The position numbers and the translations under genes are program-made. Positions 34,729 through 39,187 of a DNA stretch of 64,000 nt are shown here, one piece after another. The DNA is from Candidatus Krumholzibacteriota bacterium (GTDB lineage Bacteria; Krumholzibacteriota; Krumholzibacteriia; JAJRXK01), in NCBI GenBank assembly GCA_963727455.1, contig CAVSGG010000004.1, positions 24,532 to 88,531 on the forward strand, given 5' to 3'. A model generated the notes under the pieces. It was given only the letters and a program-made list of their open reading frames with translations. It was not told the DNA's origin and made no database searches. The stretch's first letter is position 1; the number at the start of each line of letters is the position of its first letter.

Positions 34729-34837
34729 TTCACGAGGGCGAGGCGCAAGCCCCGTGCCGCTTTCCCTGGGGCGGGCTCAGCCTTGGTATGGTACTTTCTT
34801 GGCAGAAACACGCTCCTCCTCGAAAGGTCGTGCTCGC

Positions 34838-35554
34838 ATGCGTTTGTGCGTCTTGGCTGACATCCATGGCAATCTCGCCGCCCTCAAAACCGTACTCCAG
34901 GACGCGGCAACGCGCGAGGTGGACGGATACGCCTGTCTGGGCGACGTCGTGGGTTACGGCCCCCATCCCGGGGAATGCCTCGAGTTGCTGCGCGGGCTGG
35001 ACTGCCGGATCCTGCAGGGGAACCACGAAGCGGCCCTTTTGAACGAGCCTACCGCGGGGCGCTTCAACGAGTTCGCCCGACTCGCCATCGAGTACAGCCG
35101 CGGCGCGATCAGCCCCGAGCAGCTCGAATTTCTCAAGACCCTGGAACCCACGATGGTCATCGGGGAGGAGATTCAGCTCTCTCACGGCTCCCCCGAGGAT
35201 CGCGACGAATATCTCATTTTCCTTCCGCAGATCGAGGGGATGCTGAGCCATGCCCGCTACTGGCTGACCTTTTGCGGCCACTCCCATCTGCAGTTCGTCC
35301 ACGATGGGAACCGCTTGATGGCTGGTCCCAGGGAGGGCGTTCCCTTGGAGTACGAGCGGCGCTATCTCATCAACCCCGGCAGCGTGGGTCAACCCCGCGA
35401 CCGCGACAATCGCAGCGCGTATTGCGTGGTGGATACCGCGGAAGCTCGCCTCGACCAGATCCGCTTGGAGTACGATATCGAAGAGACGGTCGCCGCCTAT
35501 CAAGAGGCGGGTCTCCCGGAATATTCGTGGCAGAGATTGCGAGACGGCCGCTAG
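34838..35554 (+). CDS. Calcineurin-like metallophosphoesterase
   Basis: DIHGN, GDVVGYG, GNHE, HGSP, GHSH, NPGSVGQPRD. Confidence 0.92.
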   Translation: MRLCVLADIHGNLAALKTVLQDAATREVDGYACLGDVVGYGPHPGECLELLRGLDCRILQGNHEAALLNEPTAGRFNEFARLAIEYSRGAISPEQLEFLKTLEPTMVIGEEIQLSHGSPEDRDEYLIFLPQIEGMLSHARYWLTFCGHSHLQFVHDGNRLMAGPREGVPLEYERRYLINPGSVGQPRDRDNRSAYCVVDTAEARLDQIRLEYDIEETVAAYQEAGLPEYSWQRLRDGR

Positions 35555-35589
35555 CTGCGGTCCGGTGCGAAGGCACGAACACGACAGTG

Positions 35590-35625
35590 GGAGAAAGAAG
35601 AAGGGGGCCCGAGGGCCCCCTTCTT
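35590..35625. terminator. Bidirectional intrinsic terminator
   Basis: Perfect inverted repeat AAGAAGGGGGCCC-GA-GGGCCCCCTTCTT (35598-35625) with pyrimidine-rich tails on both strands. Confidence 0.85.
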
Positions 35626-35876
35626 GCTCGATCACCGTTCGGCTAACCACGTTCTCCGTTTTCCGGTAATCCAGTGATCCTGGCGGTAGGCTGCCCTCAG
35701 CCTCTGCTCTTCGTTCAAGCCACGGGGTCACCGGCGAACCGGTATCCTACGGGCAATTGCCCAGAGACCGTGGTGAAGGACAACGCAATCCGGGTGCCCC
35801 ACGCCCCCCGATCCGCACCGTCCGACCAATCGACAGCAGGAACAAGAAACTTGCCCATGCTACCGCCCAGGATCAT
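35590..35876 (-). ncRNA. Putative stand-alone multi-branched structured ncRNA (about 200-285 nt)
   Basis: Promoter, 15-bp closing stem starting at the predicted TSS, internal hairpins with minus-strand G-U pairs, UUCG tetraloop, terminator. Confidence 0.6.
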
Positions 35877-35881
35877 GCCCA

Positions 35882-35910
35882 TGTATACTTTACTGGCAAG
35901 TGGGGTGCAA
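35882..35910 (-). promoter_or_regulatory. Sigma70-type promoter of the ncRNA
   Basis: TTGCAC (35910-35905)-N17-TATACA (35887-35882). Confidence 0.65.
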
Positions 35911-36029
35911 GTATCTTTTCGGGTATTACACCAAGTGGTAAAGTGCCGCTGGGTGAGAGATCATAGTCTGATTCTGGACCGTGTGAACGCGCGCCTTGCT
36001 TTCCCTCTGCTTGACCGAGGATCGCCTTC

Positions 36030-37166
36030 ATGCCCGCCAACCCCTTTCGCTTCGGAAGCCCCATCGATCAGGCCCTGCTCGTGGACCGCGAGGCCGAACG
36101 CGAGAAGATCCTAGCTATCCTGCTCGAGGCCCGCAATCTGGCCCTGGTTGCCCCGCGGGGCATCGGGAAGAGTAGTCTCTTGGCCGCGGTGGCACGGGAC
36201 GGAGCGCAGCGCCAGATGAATACGGCCTACGTGGACCTGCTGCCCGCTTTGAATCCGCGGCGTTTCGCCGAACTCTACGCCTCGGCCCTCACCCTGAGCC
36301 CCTCCCGCACCATGCAGGACACGCAGGAGGCGCTGCGTCGCTTGATTCCCAACTTCTCGCCGCGGGTCACCCTCAGCGGCGAGGGCCGCCCCGCCCTCCA
36401 GCTGGATCTATGGGACCGCGAACGGGACATCCAGGCCCTGATGGATCGGATTTTCGAGGTTCCGGCGGAGATGCAGAAGAGGAGCGGGCACCCTCTCAGC
36501 ATCATCTTCGACGATTTCGAGGACCTCATCGCAGTGGCGGAGCCCGGGTTGCTGCGGGAGTTGGCGACGGCCGCCCGCAAGCAAATTCACGTGAGCTATG
36601 TCTTCGTACTGCGCAAGGACTCCACCATCCAACGTCTCTTCGAGGAGCCGCACAGCCCCTTCTATCGCCTGGCGGAGTCCATGCGGCTAGAGCCGGTGCC
36701 CAAGAACCTCATGGTGGAAGGGCTCGAACAGTTGTTCGTGGAATGCGGGGTGAGTATCGAGCCCGTGCTGCTGCACGAACTGCTGCGCCTGGCCGATACC
36801 ATCCCTCACTACGTACAGATGCTGGCACACTCTCTCTTCGAGCAGTCCCGGGAGGACGGCACGGCCACGGCCAACCACCTCAAGGCTGCGCTCTCCCATG
36901 TGCTGGAAGGGCAGGCCTACGCCTTCAAATTCCAATGGGATCAACTCTCTGCCCATCAGAAGACCCTGGCGCTGGCGATCGCCCAGGGCTTCACCGAAAA
37001 GCTGCACTCTCAGAGAATGGTGGTACGATTGGGGCTGGGCTCACCCAGCACCGTGGCGAAGAACCTCCGCGTGTTGTCCGAGCGTGAAATCCTCAATCGC
37101 GACGGTGCGGACATTCGTTTCGTCGATCCCTTCTTCGGTCTGTGGTTGCAGCGCCGCATGAGCTGA
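36030..37166 (+). CDS. AAA-family P-loop ATPase with C-terminal winged helix (archaeal-ATPase-like)
   Basis: NPFRFG..VDREAE, Walker A APRGIGKSS, Walker B IIFDDFED, C-terminal DPFFGLWL. Confidence 0.85.
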   Translation: MPANPFRFGSPIDQALLVDREAEREKILAILLEARNLALVAPRGIGKSSLLAAVARDGAQRQMNTAYVDLLPALNPRRFAELYASALTLSPSRTMQDTQEALRRLIPNFSPRVTLSGEGRPALQLDLWDRERDIQALMDRIFEVPAEMQKRSGHPLSIIFDDFEDLIAVAEPGLLRELATAARKQIHVSYVFVLRKDSTIQRLFEEPHSPFYRLAESMRLEPVPKNLMVEGLEQLFVECGVSIEPVLLHELLRLADTIPHYVQMLAHSLFEQSREDGTATANHLKAALSHVLEGQAYAFKFQWDQLSAHQKTLALAIAQGFTEKLHSQRMVVRLGLGSPSTVAKNLRVLSEREILNRDGADIRFVDPFFGLWLQRRMS

Positions 37167-37171
37167 GAATC

Positions 37172-39187
37172 GTGTCCCTCATCACTCTGCAAAACCTGAG
37201 CTTCGACTACGGCCGGCAAGTCATCCTCGACGGAGCCAACCTCACCCTGAATCTGGGAGAGCGCTACGGTCTGGTGGGCGTGAATGGGGCCGGAAAGAGC
37301 ACCCTTATCCGGCTTCTGGCCGGTGAGCTGCAGGCTCATCGCGGAGAAGTCCAACGTGCCGCCCGCGTCTCCGTGGGCTACCTCACGCAGGACACGCAGC
37401 TCGAGAGCGACGAACCGTTGCTGCACGCGGTGCGCGCGGCCGCGTTTGCCGAGCTCCTGAGGACCGAGCGGCGGCTCGAGGAGCTCTCGCAGCGCATGGG
37501 CGCGGGCGAACAGGACGAAGAAGTTCTGGAGGAGTATGGACGTCTGCACGAACGCTTCGAGGCGGCCGATGGCTACGCCATGCAGGCGCGATGCGAGACC
37601 ACACTCATGGGGCTCGGCTTTGACGAGAACCGCTTTCAGCAGGCGGTGGTGAGTTTGAGCGGGGGGCAGAAACGCCGTGCCGCACTGGCGGCGGTGATGC
37701 TGGCTTCGCACGACGTGCTTCTCTTGGACGAGCCCACGAACCACCTCGATCTCGAAGCACGGGAGTGGTTGGAAGAAAACCTCAACGCGCGCAAGGGGGC
37801 GTTGATCGCGATCTCCCACGATCGAGCCTTCTTGGACAACACGACCGCCTACACCTTGCATCTCTACAACGGCCGACTCGATCGCTTCCAGGGTTCCTAC
37901 ACCAAGTTCATGCGCCAGTGGAAGGATCAAAAATCCGAGTGGGAGTCGCGTTACCGACGTCAGAAAGAACAGATCGCCAAAACCGAGGCGTTCATTCGCA
38001 AGAACATCGCGGGCCAGCGCACCAATCAAGCCAAGAGCCGTCGCAAGCAGCTGGAGCGGCTGCAACGCATCGAGGCGCCCCCCAGCGAGGGCCGGCGGTA
38101 CCGTTTCGATCTGGAGCCCAAACGCCCGAGCGGACAGGTGGTGTTCGAAGGGAAGGACTTGGGCCACCGCTTCAAAGACCTGACGCTCTTTTCTGGATTG
38201 GAGTTCCAGATTTTGCGCGGCGAGAAGGTGGGCATCATCGGCCCCAACGGAACCGGCAAGACCACGCTCTTGCGGATCCTGAGTCGCGAACTGGTTCCCA
38301 GCCGCGGAAGCATCACCGTGGGTCACAACACCGATTTGGGGTACTACGACCAGAACCTCTCACTGGTCAACGACAGTAACACGGTGCTTGGCGAGCTCCG
38401 CGCGTTGGATCCCATGGCCAGCGACGGGGATCTGCGCTCGCTCTTGGCCGCCTTTGGATTCGGCGAGGACATGATCGACCAGCCGGTGCGTTCCCTCAGC
38501 GGCGGCGAGCGAGCGCGACTCTCCCTCTTGCATCTCATTTTCGAACGGCATAACACCATCCTTCTGGACGAACCCACCAATCACCTGGACACCGACAGCC
38601 GCGAGGCACTGGAGGAGGCCCTCGTCCACTACACCGGCACCCTCATCTGTGTCTCGCACGACCGCTACTTCCTGAACCGCATCTGCGATCACATCTTCGC
38701 CTTCGAGAGTCAGGCTGGGGGAGGGATCGACCCGAGCCGATCGCAGGGTGGGGTACGCCGCTACCTGGGGAACTACGATGACTATCGGCGCAAACGCAGG
38801 CAGGAGGAGGAAGATCGGGCGCATGAGCAGGCGGACTTGCCCAGAAGCGGGCCGGCTTCCGCCAAGCCCTCCGCCGCCACGGTGAATGTGGCTCCGCGCG
38901 GCGACGAACCAGAGGAGGACGCCCCGCTAGAGCTTCAGCCCGGTCTCACCAAGCGGAAGCTCTCGAAGAACCAGCTCGGAAAAATCCGTCGGGAGATTCA
39001 GGATTTGGAAGAGGAGATCTCACTGCTCGAGGCGGAACTCGAAGTCCTCAGCAAGCGCATGAGCAGTGGGGAGCTCGACTCGACAGGGATGGCCAAGGCG
39101 GCGCAAGACGCGGGTCGATTCGAGTCTAGCTTGAGCGCTAAGATGCAACGCTGGGAAGATTTGAATCGCCTCATGGAGCGTCACTGA
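37172..39187 (+). CDS. ABC-F family ATPase (Uup/YdiF-like)
   Basis: Two NBDs (GVNGAGKST, GPNGTGKTT), LSGG and DEPTNHLD twice, coiled-coil tail. Confidence 0.93.
   Translation: MSLITLQNLSFDYGRQVILDGANLTLNLGERYGLVGVNGAGKSTLIRLLAGELQAHRGEVQRAARVSVGYLTQDTQLESDEPLLHAVRAAAFAELLRTERRLEELSQRMGAGEQDEEVLEEYGRLHERFEAADGYAMQARCETTLMGLGFDENRFQQAVVSLSGGQKRRAALAAVMLASHDVLLLDEPTNHLDLEAREWLEENLNARKGALIAISHDRAFLDNTTAYTLHLYNGRLDRFQGSYTKFMRQWKDQKSEWESRYRRQKEQIAKTEAFIRKNIAGQRTNQAKSRRKQLERLQRIEAPPSEGRRYRFDLEPKRPSGQVVFEGKDLGHRFKDLTLFSGLEFQILRGEKVGIIGPNGTGKTTLLRILSRELVPSRGSITVGHNTDLGYYDQNLSLVNDSNTVLGELRALDPMASDGDLRSLLAAFGFGEDMIDQPVRSLSGGERARLSLLHLIFERHNTILLDEPTNHLDTDSREALEEALVHYTGTLICVSHDRYFLNRICDHIFAFESQAGGGIDPSRSQGGVRRYLGNYDDYRRKRRQEEEDRAHEQADLPRSGPASAKPSAATVNVAPRGDEPEEDAPLELQPGLTKRKLSKNQLGKIRREIQDLEEEISLLEAELEVLSKRMSSGELDSTGMAKAAQDAGRFESSLSAKMQRWEDLNRLMERH

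What the first reader, a model, noticed from the sequence alone, without database searches (positions are those of the whole stretch)
35590..35910. Stand-alone multi-branched ncRNA #2 with its own promoter, terminator and mutually exclusive stems
Seen on the minus strand: TTGCAC-N17-TATACA puts +1 near 35876, exactly where a 15-bp closing stem begins (TGATCCTGGGCGGTAG at 35875-35860 pairs with CTACCGCCAGGATCA at 35689-35675). Inside are a long hairpin GGACGGTGCGGATCGGG/CCCGGATTGCGTTGTCC (35823-35778) with about five G-U pairs that would be A-C mismatches on +, a junction closed by CCACGG/CCGTGG that holds GGGCAATTGCCC and ACCGG-UUCG-CCGGU, and a GGCTG/CAGCC hairpin. A 3' extension can form GATCACTG/CGGTGATC (35679-72/35637-30), competing with the closing stem. 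A strong terminator follows. The next gene is convergent, so this is not a leader. It shows no tRNA, tmRNA, RNase P, SRP or riboswitch signature I know. Inference: a novel trans-acting structured RNA, possibly a 6S/Ms1-like RNA polymerase binder or a processed or switching RNA. This is the best candidate for an undescribed system in the window.
Basis: partly seen in the sequence, partly recalled or inferred. Interest (0 to 1): 0.78.

Follow-up and report, generated by a model that had tools for sequence, protein, structure and literature searches.

The report
New structured small RNA with partner RNA
This is a real, conserved and apparently expressed non-coding RNA of about 290 bases, found in only one family of uncultured Krumholzibacteriota-like bacteria, and one of its loops matches the loop of a second small RNA encoded elsewhere, so the two probably pair.

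Summary
On the minus strand, 35876-35590, lies a single-copy, non-coding, multi-branched RNA ("RNA-A") with its own promoter and a terminator-like hairpin. It has no Rfam match. It is present in 10 of 10 genomes of one bacterial family and was found in no other family of the phylum. Its helices are kept by compensatory changes. Metatranscriptome contigs from three studies cover only its core.

It is not 6S, SRP, tmRNA or RNase P RNA. Those are encoded elsewhere in this genome or, for RNase P, in its relatives. The "mutually exclusive stems" are not conserved.

Three things are new here.
- The invariant loop of the 3' hairpin is complementary over 14-19 bp, in 10 of 10 genomes, to the apical loop of a second family-specific sRNA ("RNA-B") at an unlinked locus.
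- An AAA+/winged-helix ATPase gene, whose orthologs occur only in this family, always lies divergently upstream.
- A conserved dyad sits about 58 bases upstream of the start.

Best reading, about 0.45: a regulated trans-acting RNA that works by loop-loop pairing with RNA-B. It is a new sRNA family of narrow distribution.

The parts
35590..35876 (-). RNA-A, the whole predicted transcript (about 287 nt) from the inferred start near 35876 to the end of the U-rich tail
   Evidence: Sequence. MFE z = -4.06. Homologs in 10 of 10 family genomes. Covariation. RNA contigs lie only inside 35678-35861.
35925..35945 (-). Conserved upstream block with dyad symmetry (CACTTTACCACTTGGTGTAAT here; a perfect palindrome TTCACCGATCGGTGAA in G008), centred about 58 nt upstream of the start. 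Candidate transcription-factor site.
   Evidence: Alignment of 11 upstream regions. It is one of only 7 hits to the degenerate dyad pattern in the 3.46-Mb genome. Protein binding is inferred, not shown.
35905..35910 (-). -35 hexamer TTGCAC
   Evidence: CTTGCA is kept in all 11 sequences aligned.
35882..35893 (-). Invariant GTAAAGTAT box (35893-35885) overlapping the -10 hexamer TATACA (35887-35882)
   Evidence: Invariant in 8 of 8 sequences and 11 of 11. Not called by the consensus scan.
35860..35875 (-). P1, 5' strand of the closing stem
   Evidence: The duplex with 35689-35675 is found in all 15 sequences tested. In the second genus group 5 of its 14 pairs change on both sides.
35675..35689 (-). 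P1, 3' strand of the closing stem
35841..35855 (-). P2 hairpin, variable in length between genera
   Evidence: 3 of 6 pairs change on both sides within the genus group. It is longer in other genera.
35778..35823 (-). P3 long hairpin. Its apex at 35809-35793 (GGGGGGCGTGGGGCACC) is motif 1, and the core GCGTGGGGCACC is invariant in all four genera.
   Evidence: The apex folds as GC-GUGGG-GC with a G-A 1x1 loop.
35720..35773 (-). P4 multi-branch domain closed by CCACGG/CCGTGG, with two inner hairpins. The sequence is not conserved between genera but the architecture is kept.
   Evidence: The inner hairpin has 2 pairs with changes on both sides.
35689..35702 (-). P5 hairpin GGCTG-AGGG-CAGCC
   Evidence: The second genus group has a hairpin at the same place with a different sequence.
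35630..35671 (-). P6, the 3' hairpin. Its loop carries motif 2, GAACGTGGTTAGCC (35654-35641). The 18 nt at 35654-35637 are complementary to the RNA-B loop.
   Evidence: Motif invariant. It sits in a hairpin loop in all genera. A 14-19 bp helix with RNA-B forms in 10 of 10 genomes. Cofold.
35590..35625 (-). Intrinsic-terminator-like hairpin (12 bp, 35625-35598) and U-rich tail. It probably also serves the convergent gene.
   Evidence: Not called by the consensus scan.
36030..37166 (+). Divergent gene for a 378-aa AAA+ ATPase with a C-terminal winged helix (P0001). Candidate dedicated regulator or partner.
   Evidence: Pfam nSTAND1/ATPase_2. Orthologs of 55-95% identity in 9 of 9 other family genomes, and at most 26% identity elsewhere. 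It sits next to RNA-A in every locus with enough flank. Model pLDDT 86; best folds are 2qen and Orc1/Cdc6.

Best explanation
RNA-A is an independently transcribed, stable, trans-acting structured small RNA of about 287 nt. It is specific to one family of Krumholzibacteriota-like bacteria.

A closing stem (P1) holds a branched scaffold. The scaffold displays an invariant hairpin apex (motif 1). A 3' hairpin (P6) displays a 14-nt invariant loop (motif 2).

Motif 2 base-pairs, loop to loop, with the invariant apical loop of a second family-specific sRNA, RNA-B. RNA-B is about 120 nt and lies at G000:C7:120698-120774, outside the window. I commit to RNA-A acting as a decoy or sponge that titrates RNA-B. 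The resulting long duplex is probably cut, for example by RNase III. That would leave the P1-closed core as the abundant species.

Transcription of RNA-A is probably controlled through the conserved dyad near -58. The likely regulator is the divergently encoded AAA+/winged-helix ATPase.

Shown: the RNA's conservation, structure and single copy; the lack of any match to a known family; RNA contigs over the core; and the complementarity with a co-distributed, structured element.

Inferred: pairing in vivo, which RNA regulates which, the cut, and the ATPase as regulator.
For: 1. It is a real structured RNA.
- z = -4.06.
- In the genus group 96.9% of cells are paired against 34-51% when partners are slid, and 8 pairs change on both sides against 3.6 in shuffles (1 of 500 shuffles reach this).
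- In the second group 88.8% are paired against 38-50%, and 17 pairs change on both sides against 7.7 (0 of 500).
- P1 forms in 15 of 15 sequences.

2. Distribution. RNA-A is in 10 of 10 family genomes. None of the 21 non-family loci fetched from the phylum scan carry motif 2 or the promoter box.

3. RNA-B.
- Its 22-mer is exact in 10 of 10 family genomes and absent from 198 of 198 others.
- Its covariance model hits 10 of 10 family genomes and 0 of 141 others.
- The strand that carries the complement of motif 2 folds better: alifold -64.1 against -49.3, and the single-sequence MFE is better in 10 of 10.
- That strand has three invariant G-U pairs and a U-A to G-C swap, a terminator with a G-U pair, and promoter-like hexamers upstream.

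4. Pairing.
- A contiguous helix of 14-19 bp forms in 10 of 10 genomes, against 9-12 bp for reversed RNA-B or for the rest of RNA-A.
- The MFE dimer contains this helix in 8 of 8 pairs tested. The ddG is -5.8 to -18.6 kcal/mol, against shuffle means of -0.3 to -1.8, and lies beyond all 100 shuffles in 6 of 8.
- The end pair of the helix reads U-G or U-A in the window's genus and C-G in the other three genera. No incompatible combination occurs in 10 of 10 genomes.
- Other motif-2 variants are A-to-G opposite U, or G-to-A turning a G-U into an A-U.

5. Expression. RNA contigs from 3 runs in 3 studies lie only within 35678-35861. A DNA run covers all 901 bases.

6. Regulator.
- The ATPase ortholog is specific to the family and always adjacent.
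- Its C-terminus folds as a winged helix, and the best folds are 2qen and DNA-bound Orc1/Cdc6.
- A dyad is conserved upstream of the -35.
- RNase III is encoded in the genome.
Against: - The RNA-B loop never varies, so the core of the proposed helix has no true covariation.
- One metagenome variant (L210, AAGTGGTTAGCC) would break a G-C pair unless its RNA-B compensates. I could not test this.
- Both partners hold the sequence in closed hairpin loops. That limits how much of a 14-19 bp helix can form without unfolding.
- In G005 and G006 the cofold gain is within the range of the shuffles.
- The strand and expression of RNA-B are inferred from sequence only.
- No RNA contig covers P6, so it is not shown that the stable RNA carries motif 2. 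Contigs cannot show ends or strand.
- No Hfq was found in this 88.85%-complete genome.
- The wider gene neighbourhood is also roughly syntenic, so adjacency of the ATPase is weak evidence of a functional link.
- Nothing indicates which RNA regulates which.
Confidence: 0.45

Rival explanations
1. RNA-A is mainly a protein-binding scaffold or sequestering RNA, an RNP in the functional sense of 6S, Ms1 or Y RNAs. Motif 1 and motif 2 would be protein-recognition sites. The match to RNA-B would be incidental, or would reflect one protein binding both RNAs.
For: The stem nucleotides of the P3 apex are invariant in sequence, not only in pairing, which suggests sequence-specific recognition. RNA contigs cover only the P1-closed core. 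A family-specific ATPase gene is always next door. Both motifs share CGTGG.
Against: No partner protein is identified. The ATPase's closest solved folds bind DNA or are uncharacterised. A canonical 6S RNA exists elsewhere. No Ro/TROVE gene was found (the genome is 88.85% complete). RNA-B carries the complement of motif 2, not the same sequence, on the strand that folds better. One RNA-binding site would therefore not be shared.
Confidence: 0.25
2. The shared 17-22-mer is a DNA-level site, an operator for one DNA-binding protein present at two loci. RNA-RNA pairing plays no role, and RNA-A's function lies elsewhere.
For: The two loci share the same duplex DNA sequence whichever strand is read. 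A winged-helix protein is encoded next to RNA-A.
Against: The site lies about 220 nt inside the RNA-A transcript and about 30 nt inside RNA-B, and in both it sits in the loop of a conserved hairpin. The substitutions seen are the kind that keep RNA pairing: A-to-G opposite U, and U-G or U-A exchanged for C-G. The sequence has no dyad symmetry.
Confidence: 0.08
3. RNA-A is a self-processing or processed catalytic RNA. The core is released by cleavage just 3' of P1, and the 3' hairpin is a separate product.
For: One RNA contig ends at 35678 directly next to an Illumina adapter. None of the three RNA runs covers 35590-35677.
Against: There is no match to any ribozyme family in Rfam, even at E up to 10. 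The end rests on a single contig, and contigs cannot show ends reliably. Nucleotides around the P1 3' end are not specially conserved.
Confidence: 0.07
4. It is a conserved intergenic sequence without a function of its own: a chance fold, a relic, or a mobile-element remnant.
For: The distribution is narrow, one family only.
Against: It is single-copy. It is kept across four genera whose flanking ATPase is only 55-60% identical. Helices show compensatory changes. RNA contigs come from three studies.
Confidence: 0.03

Closest known systems
sRNA sponges or anti-sRNAs of enterobacteria and Bacillus (for example SroC-GcvB, the chb spacer-ChiX, RosA-RoxS/FsrA; named from memory, no paper read here)
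   Same: An RNA with long, near-perfect complementarity to the conserved pairing region of another trans-encoded sRNA. The two genes are unlinked and co-distributed.
   Different: RNA-A is much larger and branched, and it has a second invariant hairpin. Both partners hold the pairing sequence in hairpin loops. Which RNA regulates which is unknown. No Hfq was found. Nothing has been tested in vivo.
Loop-loop (kissing) antisense pairs of plasmids, such as CopA/CopT and RNAI/RNAII (from memory)
   Same: Complementary sequences are displayed in the apical loops of stable hairpins. The resulting extended duplex is a plausible RNase III substrate.
   Different: Those pairs are cis-encoded on opposite strands of one locus. 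Here the two genes lie on different contigs of the chromosome.
sRNA genes divergent from their own regulator: oxyS/oxyR, gcvB/gcvA, sgrS/sgrR (from memory)
   Same: The sRNA gene is transcribed divergently from a conserved gene for a protein with a DNA-binding-type domain. A conserved dyad lies upstream of the sRNA's -35.
   Different: The protein here is an AAA+/STAND-like ATPase with an Orc1/Cdc6-like fold, not a LysR- or SgrR-type regulator. DNA binding and regulation are untested.
   Same: A stand-alone, abundant, structured RNA of 200-300 nt with its own promoter and terminator.
   Different: There is no model match. The genome has a canonical 6S RNA elsewhere. The architecture is branched, with no rod and no central bubble.
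Lineage-specific orphan structured RNAs found by comparative genomics, such as the raiA motif, OLE and ROOL (from memory; all are in Rfam)
   Same: A multi-stem structure supported by covariation, invariant loop nucleotides, unknown biochemical function and a narrow lineage.
   Different: It matches none of them. Unlike most of them, it comes with an explicit candidate RNA partner.

Membership tests
6S RNA (RF00013) | Match to the family covariance model | tested here: not met
   No Rfam hit at gathering score in the window, and none for 6S at E up to 10 in 35300-36200. A true 6S is found at G000:C5:583654-583833, 60.2 bits.
6S RNA (RF00013) | A long rod-like helix with a large central bubble that mimics an open promoter | tested here: not met
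   The MFE and both consensus folds are multi-branched and closed by P1.
6S RNA / Ms1 | Binds RNA polymerase | not testable with these tools
   Needs biochemistry.
Y RNA / YrlA | Encoded next to, and bound by, a Ro (TROVE) protein | tested here: not met
   No TROVE (PF05731) match in G000, which is 88.85% complete. The neighbours are an ATPase and a metallophosphoesterase. No Rfam hit.
Y RNA / YrlA | The 5' and 3' regions pair into a long stem | tested here: met
   P1 forms in 15 of 15 sequences. This is a resemblance only.
RNase P RNA, tmRNA, SRP RNA | Match to the family model, and no other copy in the genome | tested here: not met
   SRP RNA scores 78.4 bits at C5. tmRNA scores 166.6 bits at C18. 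RNase P RNA is missing from this incomplete assembly but present in 9 of 9 other family genomes, which also carry RNA-A.
Riboswitch / 5' leader | A regulated gene lies downstream on the same strand | tested here: not met
   The next gene is convergent (34754-35554, plus strand; Pfam Metallophos_2, 1.4e-14), and a terminator ends the unit.
MITE / dispersed repeat | Many copies per genome | tested here: not met
   There is one full-length match in the 3.46-Mb genome and one per related genome.
Base-pairing sRNA / sponge pair | Its own transcription unit (promoter and intrinsic terminator) | tested here: inconclusive
   The promoter boxes are conserved and the terminator hairpin covaries. The consensus scan did not call either. 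RNA contigs show presence but not ends.
Base-pairing sRNA / sponge pair | A conserved, accessible stretch complementary to the partner's conserved stretch | tested here: met
   A 14-19 bp helix forms in 10 of 10 genomes against 9-12 bp in controls. Both stretches sit in hairpin loops. The cofold dimer contains the helix in 8 of 8 pairs.
Base-pairing sRNA / sponge pair | A duplex forms in vivo and changes the level or activity of the partner | not testable with these tools
   Needs RNA-RNA interaction mapping or genetics.
Divergent regulator-sRNA pair (OxyR/oxyS type) | The adjacent divergent gene encodes a DNA-binding regulator that binds upstream of the sRNA promoter | tested here: inconclusive
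   The adjacency is invariant. The C-terminal winged helix is modelled at pLDDT 83-92. The closest folds are 2qen and DNA-bound Orc1/Cdc6. A dyad is conserved near -58. Binding is not tested.

The most novel reading that the evidence does not exclude
RNA-A and RNA-B are the two RNA subunits of one ribonucleoprotein, joined by their loop-loop helix and assembled or remodelled by the neighbouring AAA+/winged-helix ATPase. This would be a bipartite bacterial RNP with a job of its own, for example guiding or catalysing a reaction on another nucleic acid through the invariant GUGGG hairpin. It would not be a simple regulator-and-decoy pair.
Probability: 0.08. Interest if true: 0.85.

Novelty: new member of a known kind. 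Interest (0 to 1): 0.55.

Why it matters
Krumholzibacteriota are uncultured. In the two literature searches I ran, none of the 25 papers listed described a non-coding RNA of this phylum; the listing covers 15 of the 68 papers that mention it.

This locus gives a well-supported new RNA family. It also gives a concrete, testable three-part module: an ATPase/winged-helix gene, a branched sRNA, and an unlinked partner sRNA whose loop is complementary. If the pairing is real, it would be an sRNA-sRNA regulatory pair outside the model phyla, built from two structured RNAs that meet loop to loop, without a detectable Hfq.

The narrow distribution (one family, 10 genomes plus a few metagenome contigs) limits its general importance.

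Tried and rejected
1. Pairing of motif 2 with 16S rRNA helix 18. The genome's own 16S reads CCGGCTAACTCCGTGCC at that place. This leaves only 9 contiguous pairs, so I rejected the idea.

2. RNA-A as a replacement for RNase P RNA. RF00010 is absent from G000 but present in 9 of 9 other family genomes and in 40 of 41 relatives. The gap is due to the incomplete assembly.

3. A second conserved site for motif 1.
- The 12-mer core occurs 1-5 times per family genome.
- Of the two extra sites in G000, one is inside an ABC ATPase gene. The other is a terminator-like hairpin shared only with G003.
- Both look like chance or very recent.

4. Motif 1 hits in another family of the phylum. The five I read (L170-L173, L186) are in coding-like sequence. 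All 21 fetched non-family loci lack motif 2 and the promoter box. About 31 further listed places had no locus and were not read.

5. Whole-molecule duplexfold of RNA-A with RNA-B. It gave unrealistic full-length duplexes and did not separate real pairs from shuffles, so I did not use it. The first version of that script timed out.

6. RNA-B in the genomes behind L134 and L059.
- The genome behind L134 (2.3 Mb, fragmentary) gave no hit, which says nothing either way.
- The one behind L059 is G003 again.

7. A pseudoknot between the GUGGG loop and the rest of RNA-A. Checked by eye, no complementary stretch is conserved across genera.

8. A second, stronger promoter-like site at 35987-35960. It is not conserved beyond the closest relatives.

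9. The dyad as a regulon motif. It has only 7 degenerate hits in the genome and none upstream of RNA-B.

10. Sections of the 901-base stretch without RNA-contig cover (the flanking genes and 35590-35677). These are not evidence of absence.

11. Earlier scan notes. Nothing overlaps this locus or sequence.
Full report
**Observation**

- -35 TTGCAC (35910-35905), a 17-nt spacer, and TATACA (35887-35882).
- A closing stem, P1, between 35875-35860 and 35689-35675 (15 bp with one bulged G).
- A long hairpin, P3 (35823-35778).
- A junction closed by CCACGG/CCGTGG (35773-35720) with two inner hairpins.
- The hairpin GGCTG/CAGCC (35702-35689).
- A 3' hairpin, and a 12-bp G+C-rich terminator-like hairpin (35625-35598) with a U-rich tail.

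The 291-nt stretch folds at -140.5 kcal/mol, against -119.4 +/- 5.2 for 200 dinucleotide shuffles (z = -4.06; 0 of 200 as stable).

The consensus scan did not call this promoter or this terminator, because of its own rules for the last -10 base and for the T-run. For these two elements I rely on conservation instead.

The flanking genes are a convergent metallophosphoesterase (34754-35554, plus strand) and a divergent AAA+ ATPase (36030-37166, plus strand). The RNA is therefore not a leader.

**Not a known family**

- No Rfam 15 family reaches its gathering score anywhere in the 64-kb window.
- With permissive settings on 35300-36200 there are only 8 sub-threshold matches, with best E-value 0.08. 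Most of them lie on the terminator hairpin.
- Homologous loci in other genomes also give nothing.
- The genome has SRP RNA (78.4 bits), 6S RNA (60.2 bits) and tmRNA (166.6 bits) elsewhere.
- RNase P RNA is missing from this 88.85%-complete assembly. It is present in 9 of 9 other genomes of the family, all of which also carry this RNA.
- No Ro/TROVE gene was found.

**Distribution**

- The element is single-copy in its genome.
- BLAST over 41 relatives finds it full-length in 4 of 4 genomes of the same genus (84-96% identity) and in pieces in two other genera of the same family.
- Three signatures locate it in 9 family genomes: the promoter box GTAAAGTAT, motif 1 GGGGGGCGTGGGGCACC, and motif 2 GAACGTGGTTAGCC.
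- The tenth genome, G006, carries it next to its ATPase ortholog with a slightly different motif 1.
- A scan of all 208 genomes of the phylum (a single class) for motif 1 with up to one mismatch hit 46 genomes. A reversed-pattern control hits at a similar rate.
- Of the 30 loci fetched from that scan, only the 9 from this family carry motif 2 and the promoter box. All 21 non-family loci carry neither. The five I read lie in coding-like sequence. About 31 further listed places were not examined.
- Public collections add four genome loci, whose record titles name Candidatus Krumholzibacteriota MAGs where shown. They also add six metagenome contigs.

**Structure**

MAFFT cannot align the variable domains across genera, so I folded two groups separately.
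- Seven sequences of the window's genus group give 94 consensus pairs, 8 of them with changes on both sides.
- Five sequences of a second genus group give 94 pairs, 18 with such changes.

Both groups give the same architecture:
- P1 closing everything.
- A 5' hairpin, P2, of variable length.
- The long P3 with an invariant apex.
- A branched P4 domain.
- A hairpin, P5, just before the 3' strand of P1.
- A 3' hairpin, P6, with motif 2 in its loop.
- A terminator.

Counting pairs on these structures gives the following.

| Measure | Genus group | Second group |
|---|---|---|
| Cells paired | 96.9% | 88.8% |
| Cells paired when partners are slid | 34-51% | 38-50% |
| Pairs changed on both sides | 8 | 17 |
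| Same, mean of shuffles | 3.6 | 7.7 |
| Shuffles reaching the observed value | 1 of 500 | 0 of 500 |

The structures were derived from the same alignments, which flatters these numbers somewhat.

P1 forms in 15 of 15 distinct sequences, with many exchanged pairs between genera.

Indels of one or two bases occur within the genus, and the only ORF would start upstream of the inferred transcription start. Both argue against coding.

The consensus P6 stem uses 35671-35664 instead and leaves P1 alone.

**Expression**

Among public runs that hold words of 35300-36200, three are metatranscriptomes from three studies. Laid on the stretch, their contigs fall only inside RNA-A:
- 35709-35861 (100% identical).
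- 35698-35817 (depth 82), plus 35678-35727 with an Illumina adapter as a loose end at 35678.
- 35682-35851 (six differences, so a relative).

A DNA run covers all 901 bases.

These are contigs. They show presence in RNA libraries, not ends, strand or level. Even so, three studies that recover only the core and none of the flanking genes is a fair hint of an abundant, stable RNA. No contig passes the predicted start. None covers the 3' hairpin and terminator, which may mean the 3' domain is removed. That is a hint only.

**The partner RNA**

The 17 bases AACGTGGTTAGCCGAAC of motif 2 occur once more in the genome, on another contig. The same is true in every genome of the family.

That second locus, RNA-B, is a 75-nt core conserved at 89% mean column identity, followed by a hairpin with a T-run.
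- Its 22-mer is exact in 10 of 10 family genomes and absent, even with 3 mismatches, from 198 of 198 other genomes of the phylum.
- A covariance model built from it finds 10 of 10 family genomes and 0 of 141 others.
- It matches no Rfam family.

Which strand is the RNA?
- The strand carrying the complement of motif 2 has a consensus energy of -64.1 against -49.3 kcal/mol, and the better single-sequence MFE in 10 of 10 genomes.
- It has three invariant G-U pairs that would be A-C mismatches on the other strand, plus a U-A to G-C swap at the base of the stem.
- Its terminator has a G-U pair in two genomes, and TTGnnn-N17/18-TAnnnT hexamers lie upstream.

On that strand RNA-B is one long hairpin whose 22-25-nt apical loop contains GGUUCGGCUAACCACGUU.

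How well do the two RNAs fit?
- The longest contiguous RNA-A:RNA-B helix is 18-19 bp in the window's genus and 14-15 bp in the other three genera. This holds in 10 of 10 genomes. Reversed RNA-B, or the rest of RNA-A, gives 9-12 bp.
- The pair at the variable end of the helix is U-G or U-A where RNA-B has U, and C-G where RNA-B has C. There is no mismatch in 10 of 10 genomes.
- Other variants of motif 2 are A-to-G opposite a U, or G-to-A turning a G-U into an A-U.
- Cofolding P6 with the RNA-B core puts this helix in the MFE dimer in 8 of 8 pairs tested. The net gain is 5.8-18.6 kcal/mol after both hairpins have been opened. That is beyond all 100 shuffles in 6 of 8 pairs and within the shuffle range in G005 and G006.

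Against the pairing:
- The RNA-B loop never varies.
- One metagenome variant (L210) has a C-to-A change that would need a compensating change I could not look for.
- Helices this long between two closed loops need unfolding.
- No Hfq was found.
- Expression of RNA-B is untested.

RNase III is encoded in the genome.

**The neighbouring ATPase and the promoter**

A 376-379-aa ORF lies divergently upstream of RNA-A in every locus with enough flank.
- Its orthologs (55-95% identity) are in 9 of 9 other family genomes. Outside the family only paralogs of at most 26% identity turn up, in 30 of 198 genomes.
- The large protein database holds about 56 clusters at 49% identity or more. Where a name is given they are "hypothetical", "uncharacterized" or a generic predicted AAA+ ATPase. 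There is then a gap down to 31% identity.
- Pfam sees nSTAND1, ATPase_2 and AAA_16. NCBIfam, PADLOC and PDB sequence searches give nothing useful.
- A model built on 32 sequences (pLDDT 86.2, pTM 0.83) shows an AAA+ core and a C-terminal three-helix bundle with a beta-hairpin wing.
- The nearest solved folds are the archaeal Walker ATPase 2qen (TM 0.65), DNA-bound Orc1/Cdc6 (2v1u, 2qby) and 2fna.

The wider neighbourhood (ABC-F, ATPase, RNA-A, metallophosphoesterase, GDPD) is roughly syntenic but interrupted by insertions. Only the ATPase/RNA-A junction is tight everywhere.

Upstream of the -35, a 20-nt block is conserved across genera. It has dyad symmetry, is a perfect 16-bp palindrome in G008, and is centred near -58. 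The degenerate dyad occurs only 7 times in the genome.

By analogy with divergent regulator-sRNA pairs known from enterobacteria (from memory), I infer that the ATPase may control RNA-A. This is inference only.

**Verdict**

RNA-A is a genuine new family of structured small RNA, restricted to one family of uncultured bacteria. The most likely mode of action is loop-loop pairing with the co-distributed RNA-B (confidence about 0.45 for pairing). The direction I commit to, RNA-A as decoy followed by cleavage of the duplex, is less certain.

The 6S-like and switching readings are not supported.

I class it as a new member of a known kind, a trans-acting bacterial sRNA with an RNA partner, with moderate interest. 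The boldest reading still open is a bipartite RNP of the two RNAs with the ATPase.

Noticed in passing
G000:C7:120698-120774 (minus strand; L003/L194 about 1420-1545), outside the window: RNA-B is a second undescribed, family-specific sRNA. It has a 75-nt hairpin core plus a terminator, about 120 nt in all, and a 22-nt stretch that is invariant in 10 of 10 genomes. It has no Rfam match. It is convergent with a peptidase M16 gene, and in G005 and G008 a sigma-54 activator gene lies directly upstream.
   Followed up: yes
window 36030-37166 (+), overlapping 37142-39187 (+): The AAA+/winged-helix ATPase gene overlaps the start of an ABC-F (translation-factor-like) ATPase gene by 25 bases, which suggests one operon in this genus. 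In the metagenome contig L210 the two genes are about 3 kb apart.
   Followed up: partly
window 35960-35987 (-): There is a second promoter-like site (TTCACA-16-TATGAT, 10 of 12 matches) about 85 nt upstream of the RNA-A promoter. It is not conserved beyond the closest relatives.
   Followed up: partly
G000 whole assembly: RNase P RNA (RF00010) is not found in this assembly, although 40 of 41 related genomes searched have it. Most likely this is an assembly gap, since completeness is 88.85%.
   Followed up: yes
G000:C5:244658-244669 (-): An intergenic terminator-like hairpin contains the same 13-mer as the RNA-A apex (GGCGTGGGGCACC). It is shared only with the closest relative, G003, so it is probably coincidence.
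   Followed up: yes
window 35598-35625: The RNA-A terminator hairpin is nearly palindromic and sits 44 nt after the stop of the convergent metallophosphoesterase gene. It probably terminates both transcription units.
   Followed up: no
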